In this document: positions 30,839 to 38,016 of the stretch, piece by piece | How the letters are laid out: every line of letters begins with the position of its first letter | Position numbering within the stretch: position 1 is the first letter of the stretch | Source of the DNA: an uncultured Methanomicrobiales archaeon | GTDB taxonomy: Archaea; Halobacteriota; Methanomicrobia; Methanomicrobiales; Methanospirillaceae | Length of the DNA: 64,000 nucleotides | Direction of reading: 5' to 3' | NCBI GenBank assembly: GCA_963697895.1 | Contig: OY969100.1 | Coordinates: 480,001-544,000 of the forward strand | The notes under the pieces: generated by a model | Told to the model about the DNA's origin: nothing | What the model saw: only the letters and a program-made list of their open reading frames with translations | Databases searched by the model: none | Program-made: the position numbers and the translations under genes

Positions 30839-31978
30839 CTAATCAATCTGCCGCCGGGTTCTCACTGCAAGGGCCGCCATAAATCTCTGACGAATCGTAT
30901 CAGGGCTGAATGGGATTTCCTGCACCCTCGCATTGCCCGGGCGGATGAGCACATGGGCGAAACTCGGCCCTTTCCTGCTCCCCTCCAGGAATTCTATCAG
31001 TTCCTCCTCAGTCTGGACTTTGGCCGTGTCCCGGAACCCATGAGCCTGTGCCAGAAGTTCGAGATCGACCTGCACACATGCGGGAGTAGGCTGATCCCCG
31101 GTGCTCCCGAACGTACCGTTGTCCATGCAGAAGATGGTGAGATTTTTCACTTTTTTCTGGACAACAACCGGAAGGATGCCCGTACCGAGGAGGCTTCCAT
31201 CTCCGTCAAGTACCATAATTCTCCTCTCCGGAACAGCAAGCGAAATACCAAGACCGATCGGGGTCGCCTGGGTGTAACTTCCGAGCATGTAAAAGTTCAG
31301 GGGCCGGTCGCGAAGGGAAAATAGCTCCTTTCCCGGCACCCCGATGTTTGAGACAAGGGCTTCATCATCCAGGTGGCGGGTAATCACCCGAATCGCATCG
31401 TACCGGGTCATCACCGGATCCCGTATGGTCCGGTCATACCAGAGTTTCGAATGCCTGAACCGGGGAGGAAGGGAGGGTACGGCGCATCCGCCTTCTCCCT
31501 CCCAGCACCGGGGGGAGATCAGAGCGACATGGGGGCGGTGCAGGGTAAATGCATCTTCAATGACATCTCCGATACGATTCAACTCACCGCACCCGCCGAT
31601 ATACGTCGACGCGATGCCCGCATCCCGTAACAGTGCCGGTAACACCCGGTTGAACGGAATCTGTGCTTCGATCTTTTCCCGGTACACTCCCCGCCAGCTC
31701 GCCAGAATTGGGAGCGGGAGGTGATACGTGCTGGTCAGCGACATCAATGCGTTGAACATGTTCCCGATTCCCGAACTTTGAATCACCATCGCCGGCCGCT
31801 CCCCCCCAAGCCATGCCCCGGCGCATACACCGACCCCGTCCTCTTCGCGGGTCAACCCGACCTCATTGAAACGGTCTGGGATGAGGTAGCAGAGGTCTTT
31901 CGTCCGGTCGCAGGGGAGGGTGGCAAGAAGATGTATACCGTGTTGTTCCAGTATATCAAGCACGGCGTGTTCATGCAT
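30839..31978 (-). CDS. comDE: Sulfopyruvate decarboxylase, fused alpha/beta subunits
   Basis: TLPCD, REEDGVGVCAG, QSSGIGN, then NFYMLGS and TPP motif DGDGS...N; lies downstream of cysteate synthase. Confidence 0.92.
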   Translation of the reverse strand: MHEHAVLDILEQHGIHLLATLPCDRTKDLCYLIPDRFNEVGLTREEDGVGVCAGAWLGGERPAMVIQSSGIGNMFNALMSLTSTYHLPLPILASWRGVYREKIEAQIPFNRVLPALLRDAGIASTYIGGCGELNRIGDVIEDAFTLHRPHVALISPRCWEGEGGCAVPSLPPRFRHSKLWYDRTIRDPVMTRYDAIRVITRHLDDEALVSNIGVPGKELFSLRDRPLNFYMLGSYTQATPIGLGISLAVPERRIMVLDGDGSLLGTGILPVVVQKKVKNLTIFCMDNGTFGSTGDQPTPACVQVDLELLAQAHGFRDTAKVQTEEELIEFLEGSRKGPSFAHVLIRPGNARVQEIPFSPDTIRQRFMAALAVRTRRQID

Positions 31979-33245
31979 GATTGCGCACCCAGCTTACGAT
32001 ATCCCTCTTTACTGGTTCTATACCCTCATCCATACCTACTACTAGGCCGACCGGAACCGGATAAAGGGATAGATCCTCCCTCGCACGAAGGTAACCTCCG
32101 CCAGTGATATTCAGGAGAATCATCTCATCAGGATCGAGCTGCCCCTCTCTGACCGCCTGGATAAGAGAAGCAGTGCAGACTGCTGCAGCAGGATCGAGGT
32201 CGATCCCCTCAAGTTCCATAAACAATTTTCCGGCCTGCATCGCATCATCATTGGAGATGGAGTACATCTTTCCCTTCGTATTCATGAGCGCATCATATAC
32301 CCCTCCCCGGACCGCGTAGGGAGGGTTTCGGTTCGTCAATACATCTGCGTATACCTGTGCGATTGCCCTGCGTGCATCCGGCATATCAAGAGCTGGATCA
32401 ATCTCTTCACGGCCAGCGTTCCATGCACTTACCATCGGGACAAAGGGGAAATTTTGGCAAAGATGGAGGCAGGGAAGATGTGACCCGAACCTTCCGTCAC
32501 CCCGGAGACGAATCGATGCTTCCCATGCTGCAATCGCGCCTGCCCCGCTCCCGATTGCCTGGAAATAATGCGCAGGAATCCGGCCGGATGCGATAGTAGC
32601 GTCGAGCATAACCGTCCCCATGCCATCCCTTCGGGCCACATTTCCGGTCCCACCCTCGGGCACCAGATGTTCCATCCGGACAATCTCCTGTGAAAACGTA
32701 ATTGCATCGCTGTAGTCCCCTTTCACCGCAATGAGCAGGACATCATGGGTCTTTTCCGTGGTCCAGATGCGGGGCACCGACTTTTCCGGAACAACCACGA
32801 CCACCGGGATGCCGGTCTGGGCAGAGACCTGGGAGAAAGCTCTTCCCGTGTTGCCCGCGGACGCGACCACCAGCACCCCCGTTCCTTTCTCCTTCATGCG
32901 AAGCATGGTCGGAGCCGCTTCCAGTTCTTTGAAAGAGCATGTCCTGCAAAACGCGGACCTTTCGGGCCAGTATCCCGAGAACCCTACAAACAGATTCCGG
33001 AGCCCGATCTCTCCGGCCAGGGCCTCGCTTTGAAAGGTGACCGGACCCCCGTCGGTCCGGAGCACCCCTTCAACCGGAAGCCAGTCATGAAAACGGAAGA
33101 GCCCCGGATTCTGACGAAGGGTGAGCCGGGCATTCCGGTATTCTGTTCGGAGAAGAGCCTGGTGACCTGATGGACAGGCGATCGTGTATCTGTCCTCAAC
33201 GACCTCCCCACCACCCAGGCAGCGGAGACGATACTTCTTATCCAT
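31971..33245 (-). CDS. Cysteate synthase (threonine-synthase-like PLP enzyme)
   Basis: TCSFKELEA, ASAGNTGRAF, NVARRDGMG, YFQAIGSG, VLTNR.PPY and LNITGGG; overlaps the comDE start. Confidence 0.9.
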   Translation of the reverse strand: MDKKYRLRCLGGGEVVEDRYTIACPSGHQALLRTEYRNARLTLRQNPGLFRFHDWLPVEGVLRTDGGPVTFQSEALAGEIGLRNLFVGFSGYWPERSAFCRTCSFKELEAAPTMLRMKEKGTGVLVVASAGNTGRAFSQVSAQTGIPVVVVVPEKSVPRIWTTEKTHDVLLIAVKGDYSDAITFSQEIVRMEHLVPEGGTGNVARRDGMGTVMLDATIASGRIPAHYFQAIGSGAGAIAAWEASIRLRGDGRFGSHLPCLHLCQNFPFVPMVSAWNAGREEIDPALDMPDARRAIAQVYADVLTNRNPPYAVRGGVYDALMNTKGKMYSISNDDAMQAGKLFMELEGIDLDPAAAVCTASLIQAVREGQLDPDEMILLNITGGGYLRAREDLSLYPVPVGLVVGMDEGIEPVKRDIVSWVRNHA

Positions 33246-33250
33246 TTCTT

Positions 33251-34489
33251 TCATCCTTCCCTGGTTGTGAACTGATATTTTCCGGCCTGAATATCCTTCT
33301 TCAACCGAATGCAGAGATCCTCGGCCCTGTTCCGGTCGGACTGGCGGAGTGTTATCGGCACCCGCAGATCCCCGACGGTGATCGATCCCAAACGACCCTG
33401 ATAATTCCCTCCAGGGCAGACTTTGACACAGGTTCCGCAATTTACACAACGGCTTCGATCGATCCCGATACCAGGAGTAATCGCTCCCGTCGGGCAATCC
33501 CTTGAAGCTGTGCAGATCTCACAGTTCCGGCAACCGGTCGGTGAATATTGTATGACCCAATCGGTGTCGTTCCAGACATTTCCATAATCGCTCCTTGCGA
33601 TGGGCACCCGGTCCTCGATATCGGCAAGGGGCAGTACAATATCGGCATCCCGAATGCGGAGCGCATCGAGTATACTCTCATCGAGAACAGGGATGGGAAT
33701 AGCGAGAGATGTGAGGCATTCGGGTCCGTTCGAGGTGCAAAACCCGCCCATCGTAACAGGATCCATCTCCTTAAGATCGCCAAAAACGGAGAGGTTCGGT
33801 CTTTCGGGGCTGCTCCGTGTTCCTTCACCGATCACCCATCCCGGGGCTCCGTTCAGCATACCCTGCATACCTGCCGTGATCACCCTGCGTTTCGGGTCAT
33901 TTTCCAGGGGGTTGATCTCTCCGCACCCGCTCACCGAGCACTCCCTGCATCTTCCCTTCATCTTCGTGACCGAAAAGATCGATCTTGTATATCGCTTCCC
34001 CCGGTTCAGATATCCGGTATAATTCCGGTACGCGGATCGGGTTGTAATAAGTCGGGCCATATTACAGTCATCAAGAGTTATCCGGGTTGAATATTTCCTG
34101 CTTTCGACCGTTACCTCTACATCGACACCCTTTCTCTCCACAAGATCGCGAAACAGGTGTCCGCCGCCATACGTGGCATTTGTATGAGCGGTTCCATATA
34201 CTATCACATCTACGATTCCTAACCATTCGTTGGGACAAGGTCCGGGATATGCAGGAACATCGTTCAGCCAGACTTCCCCTGCCCGGTCGAAGGATCCCGG
34301 TCGAGCGACCGGGAAAGAAAGAAGTGCAAAAGTTCCCGACATCACTCCGAAGGTCCCGGTCGTGACCACGTCCACCTCATCAATCCCGATATGCTCACCA
34401 TCGGCGGTCCGCTCCTTGAATTCACGGGCAGTCAGTACGGTGGCTTCTCCGCGCAAGATCCGTTCATTGATCATTGCCAGTGACTTCAT
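33251..34489 (-). CDS. Methanogenesis marker 16 metalloprotein (DUF39 family plus C-terminal 2x[4Fe-4S]); putative coenzyme M synthase (ComF-like)
   Basis: VDVVTTGTFGVMSGT, GPCPNE.LG..D, YGGGHLF, SVSGCGEINPLEND; CxxCxxCxxxxxCP and CxxCxxCxxxCP; CoM operon context. Confidence 0.85.
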   Translation of the reverse strand: MKSLAMINERILRGEATVLTAREFKERTADGEHIGIDEVDVVTTGTFGVMSGTFALLSFPVARPGSFDRAGEVWLNDVPAYPGPCPNEWLGIVDVIVYGTAHTNATYGGGHLFRDLVERKGVDVEVTVESRKYSTRITLDDCNMARLITTRSAYRNYTGYLNRGKRYTRSIFSVTKMKGRCRECSVSGCGEINPLENDPKRRVITAGMQGMLNGAPGWVIGEGTRSSPERPNLSVFGDLKEMDPVTMGGFCTSNGPECLTSLAIPIPVLDESILDALRIRDADIVLPLADIEDRVPIARSDYGNVWNDTDWVIQYSPTGCRNCEICTASRDCPTGAITPGIGIDRSRCVNCGTCVKVCPGGNYQGRLGSITVGDLRVPITLRQSDRNRAEDLCIRLKKDIQAGKYQFTTREG

Positions 34490-35112
34490 ATCCGGATATC
34501 CTCGATTCTGATATGCAAACCCCATGATTTATGGAGTATCATGTTAACCACGCCGGTATGGCAGAGGTTCATCATGCAAGCGGACGGCATGAACGGTTGG
34601 CGGAGGCCGAAGACCGGTTCCCGGCTGGTGACAGCGGCCCTTCCCTCGAATCCGATAACATGGTACGCCTCCACATCATGATGTTTCCGGCCCCGGAGGG
34701 CGAGTGGCCCGACCGTGTGACAGATCAATACCCCGGTGACGGGATTGGCTTCGAGAACTTCGAGGACGTGCTGGACCGGGCAGCCCGACCCCGCCGGTCG
34801 TCCGACAACCAGGTCGCCCCTGCTCATCTTCCATGCCGAAACAAGGTCAGGGCGGAACGGGAGAATACTCTTCCGGGGGGACGGCTCACCGGGTATCGGT
34901 TCGAGGATGAAGTCCGCCATTCTTCCCACGATGTCCAGGGCGGGTTGTGAGATAAACCCTGTGGAACTGGCCTCGGTATTCGGTGTCGATTCGCCTGAGA
35001 ACGGGCAGTCGTCCCGTGTCTTTGCCTTCTCCATTACCAGACGAGTAAAATCTTCGCATGTCCGGCTGCCGCAGGCACCACAATCCTTTCCGGGGGGGAT
35101 CCACGAATCCAT
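34486..35112 (-). CDS. Fe-S-binding protein of unknown function
   Basis: N-terminal PGKDCGACGSRTC...CP (RnfB/CdhE-type FeS domain); additional GCPVQH, CHTVGP and CMMNLCHTG motifs. Confidence 0.8.
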   Translation of the reverse strand: MDSWIPPGKDCGACGSRTCEDFTRLVMEKAKTRDDCPFSGESTPNTEASSTGFISQPALDIVGRMADFILEPIPGEPSPRKSILPFRPDLVSAWKMSRGDLVVGRPAGSGCPVQHVLEVLEANPVTGVLICHTVGPLALRGRKHHDVEAYHVIGFEGRAAVTSREPVFGLRQPFMPSACMMNLCHTGVVNMILHKSWGLHIRIEDIRI

Positions 35113-35113
35113 T

Positions 35114-35833
35114 TCAATCGCCCCGGTACAGACTATCGGCACCGTCCAGTTTCCGCACCACTCCCGAATGGTGTTGCCAGCCAATCTCTTTTTTACCAAC
35201 ACAGATGGTACAGACGCCGAGCGGTGGGGTACCCCGGAGAGTTATCGTATCGGGGTCCTGAATATCCGGTGTTGTATCGATGGACCTGATCAGGTACCGA
35301 AGCCCTGTTCCCTGGATGGCATTTGTCTCGATGATGTCTATGTCAGGGGCGACCTCCCGCACCCGCTCCCGGAAGACTTCTTTTTCCGCCTGTGAAACGA
35401 GATCTGTTTTAGTCACGACCGCCGCATCGGCGAGCGCGATCATCGGGGCCATCTTAAGCGGGCTGTTTGTCCCCCCGGCGGCTGAAAGGACCACGATTCC
35501 GAGGGACTGGGTAGTGTATGGCGTGCACCGGAGGCAGAGTCCGGCACTCTCGAGGATCAGGATATCAGCATCGCATTTCCCGGCCCATGCGATCGCATCC
35601 CGGAGGACCATGACTCCGGCGTGGTCCGGGCATAAATCCCCTGAATACACCTTTCGTGCTGGAATGCCGAATTCATCTGCAAGCTCCTCGTCCTCGAATG
35701 CCCGGACGACATCGATCTTCAGGTACGCGATCTGTTTTTCGTCTGCCAGGAGTTCACGGATCACCTGGCGCGCCACCGCTGTCTTTCCGGCGCTCGGCGG
35801 TCCGGCAAAGATGACCAGTTTCACCCCGGACAC
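35114..35833 (-). CDS. G3E-family (HypB/UreG/CobW-like) GTPase
   Basis: GPPSAGKT, SGDLCPDH, ESAGLCLRC, TKTD and C-terminal CTIC. Confidence 0.85.
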   Translation of the reverse strand: MSGVKLVIFAGPPSAGKTAVARQVIRELLADEKQIAYLKIDVVRAFEDEELADEFGIPARKVYSGDLCPDHAGVMVLRDAIAWAGKCDADILILESAGLCLRCTPYTTQSLGIVVLSAAGGTNSPLKMAPMIALADAAVVTKTDLVSQAEKEVFRERVREVAPDIDIIETNAIQGTGLRYLIRSIDTTPDIQDPDTITLRGTPPLGVCTICVGKKEIGWQHHSGVVRKLDGADSLYRGD

Positions 35834-36603
35834 TCCTCCCCGATCAGGAGATCCCCCGACCGGATCCTCTCCCGGTAGGAGGAGAGGAGCCGGTCCATCA
35901 TCGCCACCTGCTCGATAATCCCCTTCTCTATGCCGTCCGGGACCAAAATCTTCTCAACAGCCCCGTTCCGCATCACGATCCGCCGGTCACCGAGGAGGGC
36001 GAGGAGTGGATCGTGCGTCACAAAGAGGACCGCCTTCCGGTGGTGCTTAAGGAGGGGTATTACCTTCTCTTTGCAGATCCCTCCACTCTCCACCTCGTCG
36101 AGGAGAATGATGGGGGTGCTGCAGATGGTGATTGCATCCGCGATGAAGAGCGATCGGGTCTGTCCCCCCGAGAGCGAGGTCATGCGCATCGGCCCGGCGA
36201 TCTTTTCGCCGGTGAACTCGTTTGCGAGTCCGATTGTCCTCACGATGATGCCGGGGTCTTCGATTCGCCGTGCTCTCACATGCATACCGAGGAATTCGTT
36301 CACCGTCAGATCGGCGAGACATTTCGTGTTCTGGGTAATGAGGGCGATCGGTTTACAGGCCGGGTCGCGGATGAGGTGTTCCGGGGGTTCCTGGCCGTTC
36401 ACGAGTACCGTCCTCCCGGTCGCTGTGTCGTTCCGCGCAAAAACTTCGATATCATTGATGAGCGCCGACTTCCCCGAACCTGTGGGACCGACAATGGAGA
36501 TAATATCACCGGGGCGGATGATGATCTCCGTAAAATTTTCTCCTTCCCCTTGCCGGTTCTTCCCGGGGAGGATAGTAATTGATCCTATCGGGTAATCGGG
36601 CAT
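35821..36603 (-). CDS. ABC-family ATPase with no adjacent permease
   Basis: GPTGSGKS, Q-loop ITQ, LSGGQ, LLDE and VTHD motifs. Confidence 0.88.
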   Translation of the reverse strand: MPDYPIGSITILPGKNRQGEGENFTEIIIRPGDIISIVGPTGSGKSALINDIEVFARNDTATGRTVLVNGQEPPEHLIRDPACKPIALITQNTKCLADLTVNEFLGMHVRARRIEDPGIIVRTIGLANEFTGEKIAGPMRMTSLSGGQTRSLFIADAITICSTPIILLDEVESGGICKEKVIPLLKHHRKAVLFVTHDPLLALLGDRRIVMRNGAVEKILVPDGIEKGIIEQVAMMDRLLSSYRERIRSGDLLIGEECPG

Positions 36604-36708
36604 ATAACAATCATCAGGAACGGAACGTAATATAATTATCTTTAATACCTATAATAATAATACTTTAAGGTATAAATAATTGGTATATTGATACAAATGG
36701 GGTAACAA

Positions 36709-37200
36709 ATGCTCTCTAAAAGAATGTTTCAGCTGGGGTTTCGTGAAGCGCTCGCCGAGGAACTTCACCGGAAGGATATGACCGTCCGGGATCTCGCGAC
36801 GAGAACCGGGATTCCGCCTGCCACTTTGTACAAAATAACGGCGGGTGAACGGGATCCCCGGTTCTCTACGGTTAAACGTATTCTGGAAGTTCTTGAGCCA
36901 CAGGACAGGGGTTTCATCGCCGTGATCGCCGCAAAGTTCATCCTGGACAGGGTGGAGGGAAGGGAGATACCTGGAGACGGACACCAGTACCGGGTACGCG
37001 GGTACGCGGCAAACTCCATGGACGAATGTATTGTTGCAGCAGTTGCTGCGGAACGGGAGGGAGCGGTCGGCATCATATGTGCCCCGATTCTGGCCCCGCT
37101 CGTGGAGAAGATAGTCGATGTACCGGTCGCGATCATTAAACCGAGCACGGACACGGTGGAAGACGCAATGAAGACTCTGGCCCTGATTCTTCGTCGTTGA
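36709..37200 (+). CDS. XRE/Cro-type HTH transcriptional regulator with a C-terminal putative ligand-binding domain
   Basis: TVRDLATRTGIPPATLYKITAGERDPRFST HTH; divergent from the CoM operon. Confidence 0.85.
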   Translation: MLSKRMFQLGFREALAEELHRKDMTVRDLATRTGIPPATLYKITAGERDPRFSTVKRILEVLEPQDRGFIAVIAAKFILDRVEGREIPGDGHQYRVRGYAANSMDECIVAAVAAEREGAVGIICAPILAPLVEKIVDVPVAIIKPSTDTVEDAMKTLALILRR

Positions 37201-37308: not shown

Positions 37309-38016
37309 TTATTTTATCCCGGCACGGTGGTTTCCGTCGCAGAATGGCTTATTATGGGATTTACCGCAACGACAGAGCGTAAGACGATTGCGAATTTCAT
37401 ACCGTGTCCCTTCTGCGGATTCTACCGGAATGCCACCCCGTACCCATATCGGACCGTTTACCCCTTCCTGAATATCCTTGACCAATCCGATGGAGGGGCT
37501 AAATTTCGGCTCAATTGCAGTTTCAGAAGTTTTATCCCAGATTACCAGGCGTCCGGAAGGACAATTTCCCCCTTCTTCTATGGCAAGTGTTGCCGCTTCC
37601 GGAATATCTGATTGCCGGGTCAGATTCCAGATTCTTCCCATTCGAAGACAAAAACGGGCATGTGAACATAAGTCCTCTGCATCGGTGAGTTTCAAGACAG
37701 GCCCCTCAAGCTCTTTTGCCTGATCTTTGTACATATCCCTGCTGGCCGTCTCAGTGCCATCGAAATTCGCCATTATATGCGTTCGATCACAGAATGGTTT
37801 ATTTTGAGATCGCCCGCAGCGGCACAATTCATATTCTTCCGTCACCACATATGAGTCTCCCTGCAACCATTTGTAGGAATATCCTTCGGCATCCGTTTCA
37901 ATTATCTGGTCACTCACCGGAATCCCCCCGGAGACCTGATACGGTCCATCTTTCTGCACCATTATCTTCCGACCTTCATATGCAGGATTATGTCCTTTCC
38001 CCTTGTTCTTCGACAT
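37309..38016 (-). CDS. Double CDGSH iron-sulfur domain protein with central ferredoxin-like motif
   Basis: LCRCGRSQNKPFCDRTH and LCRCGKSHNKPFCDGNH; central CSHARFC...CPSG. Confidence 0.88.
   Translation of the reverse strand: MSKNKGKGHNPAYEGRKIMVQKDGPYQVSGGIPVSDQIIETDAEGYSYKWLQGDSYVVTEEYELCRCGRSQNKPFCDRTHIMANFDGTETASRDMYKDQAKELEGPVLKLTDAEDLCSHARFCLRMGRIWNLTRQSDIPEAATLAIEEGGNCPSGRLVIWDKTSETAIEPKFSPSIGLVKDIQEGVNGPIWVRGGIPVESAEGTRYEIRNRLTLCRCGKSHNKPFCDGNHRAGIK

What the first reader, a model, noticed from the sequence alone, without database searches (positions are those of the whole stretch)
30839..37200. Coenzyme M operon headed by an unexplained ABC ATPase + G3E GTPase + Fe-S protein trio: candidate CoM-synthase maturation/activation system
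Seen: six tightly packed or overlapping minus-strand genes: ABC ATPase (no permease or binding protein), G3E GTPase with Cys motifs (CPDH, CLRC, CTIC), Fe-S protein, marker-16 metalloprotein, cysteate synthase and comDE, with a divergent HTH regulator. Known: cysteate synthase, a transaminase and ComDE yield sulfoacetaldehyde; the marker-16/DUF39 protein (MJ1681/ComF type) has been implicated in the final thiolation to CoM; G3E GTPases (HypB, UreG, CobW, MeaB) are metallo-cofactor chaperones; soluble ABC ATPases (SufC, AtwA/component A2) act in cluster assembly or enzyme activation. Inference: the first three genes form a dedicated, uncharacterised module that inserts metal/Fe-S or delivers sulfur or electrons to the CoM-forming enzyme.
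Basis: partly seen in the sequence, partly recalled or inferred. Interest (0 to 1): 0.78.

Follow-up and report, generated by a model that had tools for sequence, protein, structure and literature searches.

The report
Conserved ATPase–GTPase–FeS trio beside sulfonate synthases
A coenzyme M operon in a methanogen starts with three uncharacterised genes that, across archaea and some bacteria, travel as a unit and sit beside the enzyme that uses sulfite rather than beside the final coenzyme M synthase, so they may bear on how anaerobes obtain sulfite.

Summary
Six tightly packed minus-strand genes encode an ABC ATPase, a HypB-like G3E GTPase, a COG2000 Fe-S protein, MMP16/ComF, cysteate synthase (CS) and fused ComDE. 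A divergent HTH regulator lies upstream.

The co-location of this trio with CoM genes is already in print, with the role stated as unknown (Chadwick 2025, PMC12068725, Fig 2B legend).

- The trio stays intact and in the same gene order in 20 of 20, 29 of 29 and 73 of 76 loci.
- Of 107 trio-bearing Halobacteriota genomes, 106 have CS but only 92 have MMP16.
- In Methanobacteriaceae the gene directly upstream is ComA in 37 of 38 loci.
- One spirochaete has trio–CS–a serine-palmitoyltransferase-like acyltransferase.
- All 9 Bacteroidales genomes with a COG2000 homolog have ComA or CS.
- A four-gene variant inserts a NifS-type cysteine desulfurase.

Best reading (confidence 0.4): a self-contained redox module serving the sulfite-dependent sulfonate-forming step, perhaps by supplying sulfite. 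The chemistry is inferred, two complementarity tests failed, and one genome has the trio with neither CS nor ComA.

The parts
35821..36603 (-). Soluble ABC-type ATPase with a single nucleotide-binding domain, 260 aa; first gene of the operon
   Evidence: PF00005, 49.9 bits. Walker A GPTGSGKS, signature LSGGQ, Walker B ILLDE and H-loop THD are visible in the translation. It has only generic similarity to transporter NBDs (best NCBIfam 55 bits; best PDB 48 bits alone and 77 bits as a profile). It is single-copy in the genome at E<=1e-10.
35114..35833 (-). G3E-family P-loop GTPase, a HypB/UreG-like paralog, 239 aa
   Evidence: PF02492. TIGR00073 HypB scores 66 bits, under its cut-off of 121. The genome's true HypB lies elsewhere (244 bits). 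Invariant in 22 of 22 orthologs: GxxGxGKT, CPDH, E-x-AGLC-x-RC-x-P, K-x-D, C-x-x-C-x-G and a later His. CPDH aligns with the Cys-His metal site of HypB 4lps and UreG 5xkt.
34486..35112 (-). COG2000 Fe-S protein, 208 aa: an N-terminal 4-Cys cluster domain, a flexible linker, and an all-beta C-terminal domain with invariant Arg, Cys, His, Cys and His
   Evidence: PF04060. The N-terminal domain matches CFeSP large subunit and RnfB N-termini. The AF2 model has pLDDT 88.9, with the linker at residues 43-54 under 50. Invariant residues are C11, C14, C19, C36, R105, C111, P112, H115, C179 and H185 in 37 sequences. The C-terminal domain has no Pfam family, no Foldseek match with E<=0.001, and a best VIA Z of 4.8.
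33251..34525 (-). MMP16 / ComF (COG1900d with a C-terminal ferredoxin domain), the CoM synthase
   Evidence: TIGR03287 516 bits, PF01837 323 bits, Fer4 domains. The function is taken from PMC12068725 (abstract; sections 6, 11, 12).
31971..33254 (-). Cysteate synthase (O-phosphoserine + sulfite -> cysteate)
   Evidence: TIGR03844 626 bits. Start codons checked.
30839..31978 (-). Fused sulfopyruvate decarboxylase ComDE
   Evidence: TIGR03845 199 bits and TIGR03846 224 bits.
36604..36708 (.). 105-nt AT-rich divergent intergenic region between the operon and the regulator gene; presumed promoters, not tested
   Evidence: Sequence printed. Promoter function is inferred only.
36709..37200 (+). Divergent XRE-type HTH regulator with a C-terminal domain of about 90 aa and no known family
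   Evidence: HTH_3. An ortholog sits divergently beside the trio or CS in 5 of the 20 Halobacteriota loci (L033, L034, L036, L050, L052) and in 4 of 4 named Methanotrichaceae loci.

Best explanation
The six genes form one coenzyme M biosynthesis operon.

The first three genes (ABC ATPase, HypB-like G3E GTPase, COG2000 Fe-S protein) are a self-contained module that is inherited, duplicated and transferred as a unit. Its conserved genomic partner is not the CoM synthase MMP16. It is the sulfite-consuming enzyme that makes the C-SO3 bond: cysteate synthase in one pathway and phosphosulfolactate synthase ComA in the other.

The working model is as follows.
- COG2000 is the working part. It would be a small redox protein whose tethered [4Fe-4S] domain passes electrons to or from a Cys/His site in its beta-rich domain.
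- The G3E GTPase loads or gates that site, as HypB and UreG do for nickel.
- The ABC ATPase drives a conformational or uphill electron-transfer step.
- The module provides the inorganic sulfur substrate for CS or ComA, either sulfite or a protein-bound equivalent. The source would be sulfide in methanogens, or cysteine persulfide where a NifS-type desulfurase is built into the operon.

Shown here: the gene content, the conserved residues, the synteny and the co-occurrence. Inferred: complex formation, the metal site, the direction of electron flow and the product.

Odds: about 0.4 that the module serves the sulfite-dependent step in some way, and about 0.2 that it actually makes sulfite.
For: 1. 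The trio is a unit.
- ABC-G3E-COG2000 occur in that order in 20 of 20 Halobacteriota loci and in 29 of 29 loci of the closest relatives.
- They are complete in 73 of the 76 genome-contig loci with room for all three.
- They occur alone as second copies (L035, L037, L038, L039).

2. Co-occurrence.
- Among 401 Halobacteriota genomes, 106 of 107 with a COG2000 homolog have CS, against 92 of 107 with MMP16.
- In the window's own order (79 genomes), trio and CS coincide in 52 of 53 each, against 42 of 53 for MMP16.

3. Adjacency to two unrelated sulfite-using enzymes.
- ComA sits directly upstream on the same strand, 0-42 nt between the matches, in 37 of 38 Methanobacteriaceae-labelled loci with room, and in 41 loci in all.
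- CS sits directly upstream in 4 of 4 named Methanotrichaceae loci and in Methanomassiliicoccus, and in loci of families f23 and f7.
- CS follows the trio directly in genus g4, which has no MMP16.

4. Links outside coenzyme M.
- Spirochaete locus L123 reads trio, CS, then an alpha-oxoamine synthase that scores 310 bits to serine palmitoyltransferase. CS plus a cysteate fatty acyltransferase are the first two enzymes of the sulfonolipid pathway (PMC11211663, passages).
- The G3E of L123 groups with the ComA-linked clade, so this CS adjacency arose separately.
- 9 of 9 Bacteroidales genomes with a COG2000 homolog have ComA (7) or CS (2), against 80 of 142 without one. The hypergeometric P is 0.007 and is not corrected for kinship.
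- 5 of 5 bacterial genomes with the trio have ComA or CS, and only 2 of 5 have any COG1900 protein.

5. A sulfur input.
- The variant ABC-G3E-NifS-COG2000 occurs in an archaeon of family f14 and in 5 Bacteroidales loci. The inserted gene was scanned in three of these (L042, L135, L137) and scores 456-485 bits to NifS.
- In the f14 locus the neighbours are SufB-like, MoeB/UbaA-like and SsuA-family genes.

6. The origin of sulfite for CoM is treated as open. Yu et al. 2018 offer reverse alSir only as a possibility (PMC6286981, passage).
Against: - One 99%-complete genome (G227) has a trio but no CS, no ComA and no MMP16. Stand-alone second copies also exist. At least some copies therefore work outside sulfonate synthesis.
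- Two complementarity tests gave nothing. All 5 trio-bearing archaeal genomes tested also have small siroheme NIR_SIR proteins. CysH is present over its cut-off in 5 of 9 trio-bearing Bacteroidales against 85 of 142 others.
- The trio is dispensable for many sulfonate makers. 79 of 185 CS-bearing Halobacteriota genomes and 80 of 89 ComA- or CS-bearing Bacteroidales lack it.
- In Methanomicrobiales and in family f7 the trio is just as close to MMP16 or ComDE, so synteny there does not discriminate.
- In Methanocaldococcus, in the Methanopyri MAG and in Bacteroidales, ComA or CS is not adjacent.
- The independent adjacency arrangements number only about four, because related genomes are not independent.
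- No known sulfite-forming chemistry uses such proteins, and the C-terminal domain has no structural relative to lean on.
Confidence: 0.4

Rival explanations
1. A dedicated metallocluster assembly machine. On this reading it is a minimal SUF/NIF-like system. COG2000 would be the scaffold or carrier, the ABC ATPase would play the part of SufC, the G3E GTPase would supply the metal, and sulfur would come from sulfide or from NifS. The cluster would be built or inserted for a client not yet identified. That client could be in the sulfonate pathway or elsewhere.
For: - A NifS-type desulfurase is inserted in the operon in one archaeal and five bacterial loci (scanned in L042, L135, L137), next to a SufB/SmsB-like gene in L042.
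- The G3E protein has 7 invariant Cys/His.
- COG2000 has 6 invariant Cys and 2 invariant His.
- Stand-alone copies and genome G227 fit a more general role.
Against: - The distribution is narrow and tied to CS or ComA (106 of 107; 9 of 9). The family has only 133 representative clusters at E<=0.001 among 1.84 billion.
- From general knowledge, no enzyme of the CS, ComA or sulfonolipid routes is known to need an Fe-S cluster. MMP16 is the exception, and it is often absent where the trio is present.
- The ABC protein shows no specific likeness to SufC among its 25 best NCBIfam rows or its best PDB rows.
Confidence: 0.2
2. The trio matures, metallates or reductively activates the CoM synthase MMP16/ComF.
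For: - In the window and in 23 of 29 loci of the closest relatives, MMP16 directly follows COG2000.
- 92 of 107 trio-bearing Halobacteriota genomes have MMP16.
- MMP16 carries a ferredoxin domain.
- Four genomes of genus g46, and G312, carry a second MMP16 next to a trio of the window's type.
Against: - 15 of 107 trio-bearing genomes lack MMP16, and 78 of 170 MMP16-bearing genomes lack the trio.
- Only 1 of the 80 genome-contig loci has MMP16 within 8 kb. The Methanobacteriaceae loci have ComA instead.
- Bacteria with the trio mostly lack COG1900 proteins (2 of 5 have one).
- In family f23 the trio and MMP16 lie about 1 Mb apart in G096.
- MMP16 alone gave CoM in E. coli according to work cited in PMC12068725 (section 12).
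Confidence: 0.1
3. A sulfide/persulfide relay for the thiol of CoM. It would hand reduced sulfur to MMP16 or to L-ASST, in the way MA1715 serves L-ASST. It would sit beside ComA or CS only because those genes head the pathway.
For: - The NifS variant shows that a persulfide enters the system.
- Genus g4 has trio-CS-ComDE without MMP16 but keeps an L-ASST-level COG1900 hit. Chadwick et al. propose L-ASST as a backup CoM synthase (PMC12068725, abstract and section 12).
Against: - 3 of 5 bacterial genomes with the trio have no COG1900 protein.
- The spirochaete cluster looks like a sulfonolipid pathway, which has no thiolation step.
- A plain relay would not obviously need an ATPase, a GTPase and a tethered [4Fe-4S] domain. 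This last point is inference.
Confidence: 0.1
4. A sensor, buffer or detoxifier for sulfite or for pathway intermediates. It would protect the cell, for example methyl-CoM reductase, while sulfonates are made. It would not be a supplier.
For: - The association with sulfite-using enzymes is the same as for the best explanation.
- Siroheme sulfite reductases and CysH are present in trio-bearing genomes, so other sulfite sources may exist.
- In bacteria the trio has its own regulators: a HisKA_3/LuxR pair or a divergent Crp/Fnr protein.
Against: - There is no DNA-binding or signalling domain in the three proteins.
- A NifS input fits a biosynthetic flow better than sensing does. This point is inference.
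Confidence: 0.07
5. The ATPase of an ordinary ABC transporter whose membrane parts are encoded elsewhere. The other two genes would be unrelated passengers.
For: The best family and PDB matches of the ABC protein are transporter NBDs.
Against: - The matches are weak for a transporter NBD (55 bits or less to any NCBIfam model, whose cut-offs are 240 bits or more).
- No permease is conserved beside the trio in 129 related loci.
- The only transporter seen nearby, the PstS type in L123, has its own ATPase.
- The fixed three-gene order holds across two domains of life.
Confidence: 0.03

Closest known systems
HypB and UreG, the G3E GTPases that deliver nickel to [NiFe]-hydrogenase and urease
   Same: Same P-loop family (PF02492). 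The Cys-His motif (CPDH) aligns with the metal site of HypB 4lps and UreG 5xkt. A K-x-D base-specificity motif is present. The gene lies in an operon with its presumed client.
   Different: It scores 66 bits to the HypB model, under the cut-off of 121. The genome has a true HypB elsewhere. It has extra invariant Cys residues (C-x-R-C after Walker B and a C-terminal C-x-x-C). No HypA- or UreE-type partner is present. The partners are an ABC ATPase and an Fe-S protein, and the client and the metal are unknown.
SufS-SufBC2D and NifS-NifU Fe-S cluster assembly
   Same: A soluble ABC ATPase works with a Cys-rich protein. In the four-gene variant there is a dedicated NifS-type desulfurase. The desulfurase-free form occurs in methanogens, which from general knowledge live in sulfide-rich habitats.
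   Different: The ABC protein shows no specific SufC likeness in the rows shown. COG2000 is unrelated to SufB, SufD or NifU. A G3E GTPase is always present. The distribution follows sulfonate synthases and not Fe-S proteins in general.
The published note on this trio: Chadwick et al. 2025, PLoS Genet (PMC12068725)
   Same: The same three genes are named (an ATPase, a Ni2+-binding GTPase and a COG2000 Fe-S protein). They are said to be often co-located with CoM biosynthesis genes in methanogens of several orders, with their role unknown (Fig 2B legend).
   Different: In the parts read (abstract; sections 6, 11, 12; passages) no function is proposed. There is no statement that the trio follows CS or ComA rather than MMP16, and nothing on bacterial copies or the NifS variant. 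Its supplements (S1 Fig, S1 Table) could not be read and may show some of the neighbourhoods found here.
The N-terminal [4Fe-4S] domain of the corrinoid iron-sulfur protein large subunit, and of RnfB
   Same: The first roughly 45 residues of COG2000 match these domains (profile E 4e-8 to 2e-5; Foldseek probability 0.91 over 34 columns to 4djd_C). As in CFeSP, the domain is joined to the rest by a flexible linker.
   Different: The rest of the protein is neither a TIM barrel nor a corrinoid binder. It is a beta-rich domain of unknown family.
ATP-driven electron-transfer activators: component A2 (AtwA) of methyl-CoM reductase activation, and RACo for CFeSP. This comparison is recalled from general knowledge and was not searched here.
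   Same: An ATPase is coupled to Fe-S proteins to move electrons against the potential gradient. This is a possible model for why two NTPases accompany a small redox protein.
   Different: A2 has two NBDs and RACo is an ASKHA ATPase. No sequence link to either was found here. The analogy is functional only and is untested.
The L-ASST system for homocysteine (MA1821/MA1822, with MA1715 as sulfur carrier)
   Same: It is an accessory sulfur-handling system beside a COG1900 enzyme in methanogens (PMC12068725, section 12).
   Different: The protein families are different. The trio occurs without any COG1900 protein in 3 of 5 bacterial genomes tested.

Membership tests
G3E P-loop GTPases (CobW/HypB/UreG, PF02492) | Pfam model over its gathering score; Walker A GxxGxGKT; Walker B-like ExxG; NKxD-type base-specificity motif | tested here: met
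   48.9 bits against a cut-off of 20.7. GPPSAGKT, ESAGL and TKTD are present in the translation. G..GKT, E-x-AG and K-x-D are invariant in 22 of 22 sequences.
HypB proper (TIGR00073 equivalog) | Score over the curated cut-off of 121.2 bits | tested here: not met
   66.3 bits. A separate gene elsewhere in the same genome scores 244 bits.
HypB/UreG-type metal site | A Cys-(Pro)-His motif in the switch region plus a Cys after Walker B | tested here: met
   CPDH aligns with the CH of 4lps and the CPH of 5xkt. CPDH and C-x-R-C are invariant. Metal binding itself cannot be tested with these tools.
ABC ATPase superfamily (PF00005) | Walker A, LSGGQ signature, Walker B, H-loop; Pfam score over the cut-off | tested here: met
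   49.9 bits against a cut-off of 25. All four motifs are in the translation and are invariant in 22 of 22 sequences.
ABC transporter (importer or exporter) | A permease, with or without a binding protein, encoded with the ATPase | tested here: not met
   None is beside the trio in the window, and none is conserved in 129 related loci. An unlinked permease cannot be excluded.
SufC-type cluster-assembly ATPase | Specific match to SufC models or structures; SufB/SufD partner | tested here: inconclusive
   SufC is not among the 25 NCBIfam rows shown of 123 matched, nor among the PDB rows shown. A SufB-like gene lies near the trio in only one locus, L042.
PF04060 FeS domain (as in the CFeSP large subunit and RnfB N-termini) | Four conserved Cys (C-x2-C-x4-C ... 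C) and a Pfam score over the cut-off | tested here: met
   36.4 bits against a cut-off of 23. 37 of 37 aligned members match. C11, C14, C19 and C36 are invariant. Cluster binding itself cannot be tested here.
Methanogenesis marker 16 / ComF (TIGR03287) | Score over the cut-off of 363.95 bits; COG1900 domain plus ferredoxin domain | tested here: met
   516.2 bits, with PF01837 and Fer4 domains.
Cysteate synthase (TIGR03844) | Score over the cut-off of 324.9 bits | tested here: met
   626.1 bits.
Sulfopyruvate decarboxylase ComDE (TIGR03845 and TIGR03846) | Both halves over their cut-offs (147.95 and 221.5 bits) | tested here: met
   199.3 and 223.8 bits in one 379-aa protein.
   15 of 107 trio-bearing genomes lack MMP16, and 78 of 170 MMP16-bearing genomes lack the trio. 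3 of 5 bacterial genomes with the trio have no COG1900 protein.
Module linked to sulfite-dependent sulfonate synthases (proposed here) | The trio occurs in genomes that have CS or ComA, and lies next to one of them | tested here: met
   CS is present in 106 of 107 trio-bearing Halobacteriota genomes. ComA or CS is present in 9 of 9 and 5 of 5 bacterial genomes and in 4 of 5 further archaeal genomes. ComA is adjacent in 37 of 38 Methanobacteriaceae loci. The exception is G227.
Sulfite-forming enzyme (proposed here) | Formation of sulfite from sulfide or persulfide | not testable with these tools
   Inference only. Two indirect predictions, complementarity with NIR_SIR and with CysH, were not met.

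The most novel reading that the evidence does not exclude
The trio is a new kind of enzyme system that makes sulfite anaerobically. COG2000 would be a metalloenzyme with a tethered [4Fe-4S] domain, loaded by its own G3E GTPase. It would oxidise sulfide or cysteine-derived persulfide to sulfite. The ABC ATPase would pay for pushing the electrons uphill onto low-potential carriers. The sulfite would be handed to cysteate synthase or ComA. This would answer where methanogens and some anaerobic bacteria get the sulfite for coenzyme M and sulfonolipids.
Probability: 0.2. Interest if true: 0.9.

Novelty: new variant of a known kind. Interest (0 to 1): 0.62.

Why it matters
Coenzyme M is required by every methane-forming and methane-oxidising archaeon. 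Both known archaeal routes to it begin by adding sulfite to a three-carbon compound.

Most of these organisms live on sulfide, and sulfite is harmful to them. The origin of the sulfite is not settled. One paper read here offers only a sulfite reductase running in reverse, as a possibility (PMC6286981, passage).

The trio follows the two unrelated sulfite-using enzymes across archaea and turns up in bacteria beside what looks like a sulfonolipid pathway. It sometimes carries its own cysteine desulfurase. That makes it a concrete, testable candidate for the missing step.

Even if that guess is wrong, the work redirects the published "role unknown" genes away from the CoM synthase. It also gives clear rescue experiments that separate the rival readings.

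The C-terminal domain of COG2000 has no Pfam family and no clear structural relative. Its chemistry is therefore likely to be new whichever reading holds.

Tried and rejected
**Structure and sequence searches for COG2000**
- Foldseek against the PDB found no match with E<=0.001. Only the 34-column N-terminal Fe-S domain resembled CFeSP.
- VIA-align against 48,161 chains gave a best Z of 4.8 (RsmE N-terminal barrel) and nothing at Z>=5. The rows are generic small beta-barrels and no family can be named from them.
- A Pfam scan of all 37 aligned members at E<=1 found nothing consistent beyond PF04060.
- A profile search of PDB sequences matched only the N-terminal domain.
- The ESM Atlas returned only Fe-S-binding-protein clusters carrying PF04060.
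- A search for longer, fused forms of the C-terminal domain found none. The tool itself says this is weak evidence.

**Complex prediction**
- The three proteins were sent with alignments, with COG2000 as the partner. The result was no answer (scores 0.00 and 0.02 against a mark of 0.32).
- This is not used as evidence either way.

**Expression**
- No RNA holder was listed for the operon.

**Complementarity tests of the sulfite-supply idea**
- Small NIR_SIR proteins are present in 5 of 5 trio-bearing archaeal genomes tested.
- CysH is no rarer in trio-bearing Bacteroidales than in the others (Fisher P = 1).
- Both results fail to support the idea.

**Neighbours of the stand-alone second copies**
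- The neighbours were PKD-domain proteins, a dockerin-like protein, a RACo-like ASKHA protein and small ORFs with no family.
- They gave no lead.

**Literature**
- 'COG2000' found only the Chadwick paper and its preprint, plus one unrelated hit.
- 'source of sulfite' with 'coenzyme M' found nothing.
- Six guessed locus tags (recalled, and possibly wrong) found nothing.
- PMC12713407 says nothing on these genes in the passages found.
- On these searches alone, no proposed function for the trio is in the held library. Subscription papers and supplementary files were not covered.

**Rejected idea**
- The operon GTPase is not the cell's HypB. A true HypB exists elsewhere in the genome.

**Limits of the cross-tabulations**
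- The cross-tabulations were made by hand from the printed genome tables.
- MMP16 was called present where the best E-value was 1e-100 or lower. That count agrees with the tool's own count of 170 genomes over the cut-off.
- Two of the 107 COG2000 matches (G086, G093) are only fragments.
- The 20 regions were chosen by me to cover unusual cases.
- The 80 loci were seeded with an alignment of the bacterial, Methanobacteriaceae and Methanotrichaceae type. Neither set is a random sample.

Full report
**What is in the window**

Between 30839 and 36603 six ORFs lie head to tail on the minus strand. One ORF diverges on the plus strand at 36709-37200. Pfam and NCBIfam name them as follows.
- 35821-36603: an ABC-type ATPase.
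- 35114-35833: a G3E GTPase. It scores 66 bits to the HypB model, under its cut-off.
- 34486-35202: a protein with the PF04060 Fe-S domain.
- 33251-34525: methanogenesis marker 16 (MMP16, 516 bits).
- 31971-33497: cysteate synthase (CS, 626 bits).
- 30839-31978: a fused ComDE (199 and 224 bits).
- 36709-37200 (+): an XRE-type HTH protein.

The likely true starts make every junction an overlap or a short gap. These starts are 35112 for the Fe-S protein, 33254 or 33245 for CS, and possibly 34489 for MMP16. The genes therefore look like one operon.

The genome is a single 2.09-Mb contig. The nearest named homologs of the Fe-S protein, at about 60% identity, come from Methanoregula, Methanoculleus and other Methanomicrobiales.

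**What is already known**

Chadwick et al. 2025 (PMC12068725) show that MMP16 is the main CoM synthase of Methanosarcina acetivorans. I read the abstract, sections 6, 11 and 12, and search passages.

Their Fig 2B legend names the same three gene types. [quoted passage not shown] The co-location is therefore in print and the function is not.

Their supplements could not be read.

**The trio is a unit**

- In 20 regions fetched from genomes of the same phylum, the three genes are always together and in the same order.
- The same holds in the 29 best-scoring loci. There, 23 have MMP16 next and 6 have CS next.
- A scan of one genome per species, seeded with an alignment of a more distant subgroup, returned 80 loci. 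Of the 76 with room for all three genes, 73 have them. The exceptions are L092 and L121, which lack the ABC gene, and L127, where COG2000 stands alone.
- Several genomes have a second, stand-alone copy (L035, L037, L038, L039).
- The family is small: 133 representative clusters at E<=0.001 among 1.84 billion.

**The trio follows cysteate synthase, not MMP16**

I searched the same 401 Halobacteriota genomes for the Fe-S protein, for MMP16 and for CS. Two of the 107 Fe-S-protein matches are only fragments.

| Search | Genomes with a match, of 401 |
|---|---|
| COG2000 Fe-S protein (trio marker) | 107 |
| MMP16 over its cut-off | 170 |
| CS | 185 |

- Of the 107 trio-bearing genomes, 106 have CS and 92 have MMP16.
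- In the window's own order (79 genomes), trio and CS are each in 53 genomes and coincide in 52. MMP16 is in 44 genomes, 42 of them with the trio.
- Genus g4 of the window's own family shows this best. Three loci read HTH|trio-CS-ComDE. Their genomes have only weak, L-ASST-level hits to the MMP16 model.
- Conversely, 78 MMP16-bearing genomes have no trio.

Related genomes are not independent, so the very small Fisher P values overstate the case. The direction of the result is still clear.

**The second sulfite-using enzyme**

- In Methanobacterium ferruginis the gene directly upstream of the ABC gene is ComA, the enzyme that adds sulfite to phosphoenolpyruvate.
- Using that ComA as a query, 41 loci have it on the same strand, 0-42 nt from the ABC match.
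- This covers 37 of the 38 Methanobacteriaceae-labelled loci with room upstream.
- None of these loci has MMP16, CS or ComDE within 8 kb.

In the other lineages the arrangement is as follows.
- Named Methanotrichaceae loci (4 of 4), a Methanomassiliicoccus locus, and loci of families f23 and f7 read CS-trio, often followed by ComD and ComE.
- In family f7, MMP16 is nearby on the other strand or about 300 kb away.
- In G096 of family f23, the trio and MMP16 lie about 1 Mb apart.

ComA and CS are unrelated proteins. From established biochemistry, and as restated in PMC3087415 and PMC12713407 (passages), what they share is sulfite as substrate and a sulfonate as product.

**Bacteria**

The scan also found the trio in Bacteroidales and in two Spirochaetota MAGs. 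The named Bacteroidales include Mangrovibacterium, Sunxiuqinia, Anaerophaga and MAGs labelled Muribaculaceae, Rikenellaceae and Prolixibacteraceae.

- Spirochaete locus L123 reads trio, CS, then an alpha-oxoamine synthase that scores 310 bits to serine palmitoyltransferase, then a PstS-type phosphate transporter.
- CS and a cysteate fatty acyltransferase are the first two enzymes of sulfonolipid synthesis (PMC11211663, passages). This cluster therefore looks like a sulfonolipid pathway, which has no thiolation step.
- In a G3E tree this spirochaete groups with the ComA-linked Methanobacteriaceae and not with the CS-linked archaea. Its CS adjacency is therefore a separate event.
- Five of five bacterial genomes with the trio have ComA or CS somewhere. 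Only two have any COG1900 protein.

I also searched a sample of 151 Bacteroidales genomes.

| Feature | Genomes, of 151 |
|---|---|
| COG2000 homolog | 9 |
| ComA | 56 |
| CS | 34 |
| Both ComA and CS | 1 |

- All 9 genomes with the homolog have ComA (7) or CS (2).
- Among the genomes without the homolog, 80 of 142 have ComA or CS.
- The hypergeometric P is 0.007 and is not corrected for kinship.

**A variant with its own sulfur donor**

- In an archaeon of family f14 (L042) and in five Bacteroidales loci (L135, L136, L137, L139, L140) a gene of about 387 aa sits between the GTPase and the Fe-S protein.
- It was scanned in L042, L135 and L137 and scores 456-485 bits to the NifS cysteine desulfurase model.
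- In L042 the neighbours are a SufB/SmsB-like gene, a MoeB/UbaA-like gene and an SsuA-family gene.
- A Crp/Fnr-type regulator diverges from this form in the two loci scanned, L135 and L137.
- The three-gene bacterial form has a HisKA_3 kinase and a LuxR-type response regulator upstream in L063.
- In the tree, the NifS form is sister to the Methanomicrobiales form (support 88/71).

So reduced sulfur, as persulfide, enters this system at least in some organisms.

**The proteins**

G3E GTPase:
- It keeps the P-loop, the K-x-D motif and a CPDH motif that aligns with the metal-binding Cys-His of HypB and UreG.
- These motifs, plus C-x-R-C after Walker B, a C-terminal C-x-x-C and a later His, are invariant in 22 of 22 orthologs.
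- The genome has a separate true HypB.

ABC protein:
- It has all the NBD motifs.
- It has only weak, generic likeness to transporter NBDs.

COG2000 protein:
- It folds with high confidence (pLDDT 88.9).
- It has a 4-Cys domain like the [4Fe-4S] domain of the corrinoid iron-sulfur protein and RnfB.
- A disordered linker follows, then a beta-rich domain.
- The invariant residues of that domain are R105, C111, P112, H115, C179 and H185.
- That domain has no Pfam family and no convincing structural relative.

**How it most likely works**

The only partners that are always present are the three proteins themselves. The simplest reading is that the two NTPases serve COG2000 and not a neighbouring enzyme.

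A cluster domain on a tether suggests that COG2000 does redox chemistry at its Cys/His site. The G3E protein suggests that the site holds a metal. The NifS variant suggests that the substrate is reduced sulfur. The conserved link to ComA and CS suggests that the output feeds the sulfite-dependent step.

I therefore favour a module that supplies sulfite, or a bound equivalent, for sulfonate synthesis.

From general thermodynamics, oxidising sulfide to sulfite onto the low-potential carriers of a methanogen is uphill. That would give the ATPase a purpose. This is inference only.

**What speaks against this**

- Genome G227 (99% complete) has a trio but no CS, ComA or MMP16.
- Stand-alone second copies exist.
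- Small siroheme sulfite reductases are present in all five trio-bearing archaeal genomes tested.
- CysH is as common in trio-bearing Bacteroidales as in the others. The trio therefore does not replace known sulfite sources in any simple way.
- Many CS or ComA owners lack the trio: 79 of 185 in Halobacteriota and 80 of 89 in Bacteroidales.
- In Methanocaldococcus sp. 16A and in a Methanopyri MAG the trio is not next to ComA, although ComA is present in both genomes.
- There is no chemical precedent for sulfite formation by proteins of this kind.

**Verdict**

The proposed client (MMP16) is not supported. The better-supported partner is the sulfite-using synthase.

I give 0.4 to the reading that the module serves that step, and about 0.2 to actual sulfite production. 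The rivals get 0.2 for a dedicated cluster-assembly machine with an unknown client, 0.1 each for MMP16 maturation and a thiol-sulfur relay, 0.07 for a sulfite sensor or buffer, and 0.03 for a transporter ATPase.

The rescue experiments listed under next steps would separate these readings.

Noticed in passing
window 36709-37200 (+); also L033, L034, L036, L050, L052, L109, L122, L128, L130: The divergent XRE-type HTH protein (HTH_3 plus a C-terminal part of about 90 aa with no family) is conserved next to the trio or CS. It is 54-62% identical in relatives of the window's family and order, and 38-39% identical in named Methanotrichaceae. It is a candidate regulator of CoM synthesis. Its ligand is unknown.
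   Followed up: partly
window 37309-38016 (-): Just beyond the regulator lies a protein with two CDGSH iron-binding zinc-finger stretches (127 bits) and a Fer4_19 mono-cluster domain. No NCBIfam model matches it. Whether it belongs with the operon was not tested.
   Followed up: no
L035 (G227), L037 (G317), L038 (G247), L039 (G252): Second, stand-alone copies of the whole trio exist in several genomes of the window's order. Their neighbours are PKD-domain proteins and other unrelated genes. G227 keeps only such a copy and has no CS, ComA or MMP16. This hints at a function beyond CoM synthesis.
   Followed up: partly
Bacteroidales sample G401-G555: ComA (56 genomes) and cysteate synthase (34 genomes) are almost mutually exclusive among 151 Bacteroidales genomes. 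Only one genome, G415, has both. This looks like two alternative entries to one sulfonate pathway, probably sulfonolipids.
   Followed up: no
L080 8827-9693, L092 5736-6677 (and an unscanned ORF at L072 8683-9558): In Methanobacteriaceae a gene of the F420-0:gamma-glutamyl ligase family (PF01996) follows the COG2000 gene on the same strand. It may be part of the ComA-trio operon. Its role there is unexplained.
   Followed up: no
L045 (G392); G271, G292, G336, G312: Four genomes of genus g46 in family f7, and G312, carry a second MMP16 copy next to a trio of the window's own type (51-56% identity). This is in addition to their native MMP16. It suggests that the trio plus MMP16 was transferred as a block.
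   Followed up: partly
G3E tree: Bacterial trios fall in two places. The three-gene forms (Bacteroidales, Spirochaetota) lie inside a starred clade with Methanocaldococcus and Methanobacteriaceae. The NifS-containing forms group with an archaeon of family f14. So there were at least two transfers between the domains. The direction was not tested.
   Followed up: partly
L063 8937-11317: In Mangrovibacterium marinum the trio and its two-component regulators are followed by MobC-like, relaxase and RhuM/Fic genes. This copy may therefore sit on a mobilisable element.
   Followed up: no
L080 11546-12187: A TfuA-like gene lies about 3 kb downstream of the trio in Methanobacterium ferruginis. From general knowledge TfuA is linked to thioamide formation. 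Proximity only; not examined.
   Followed up: no
G321 contig C11 and G281: G321 has MMP16 and CS side by side but no COG2000 match. G281 has MMP16 but neither CS nor the trio. Both are draft or partial cases and were not checked for contig ends.
   Followed up: no
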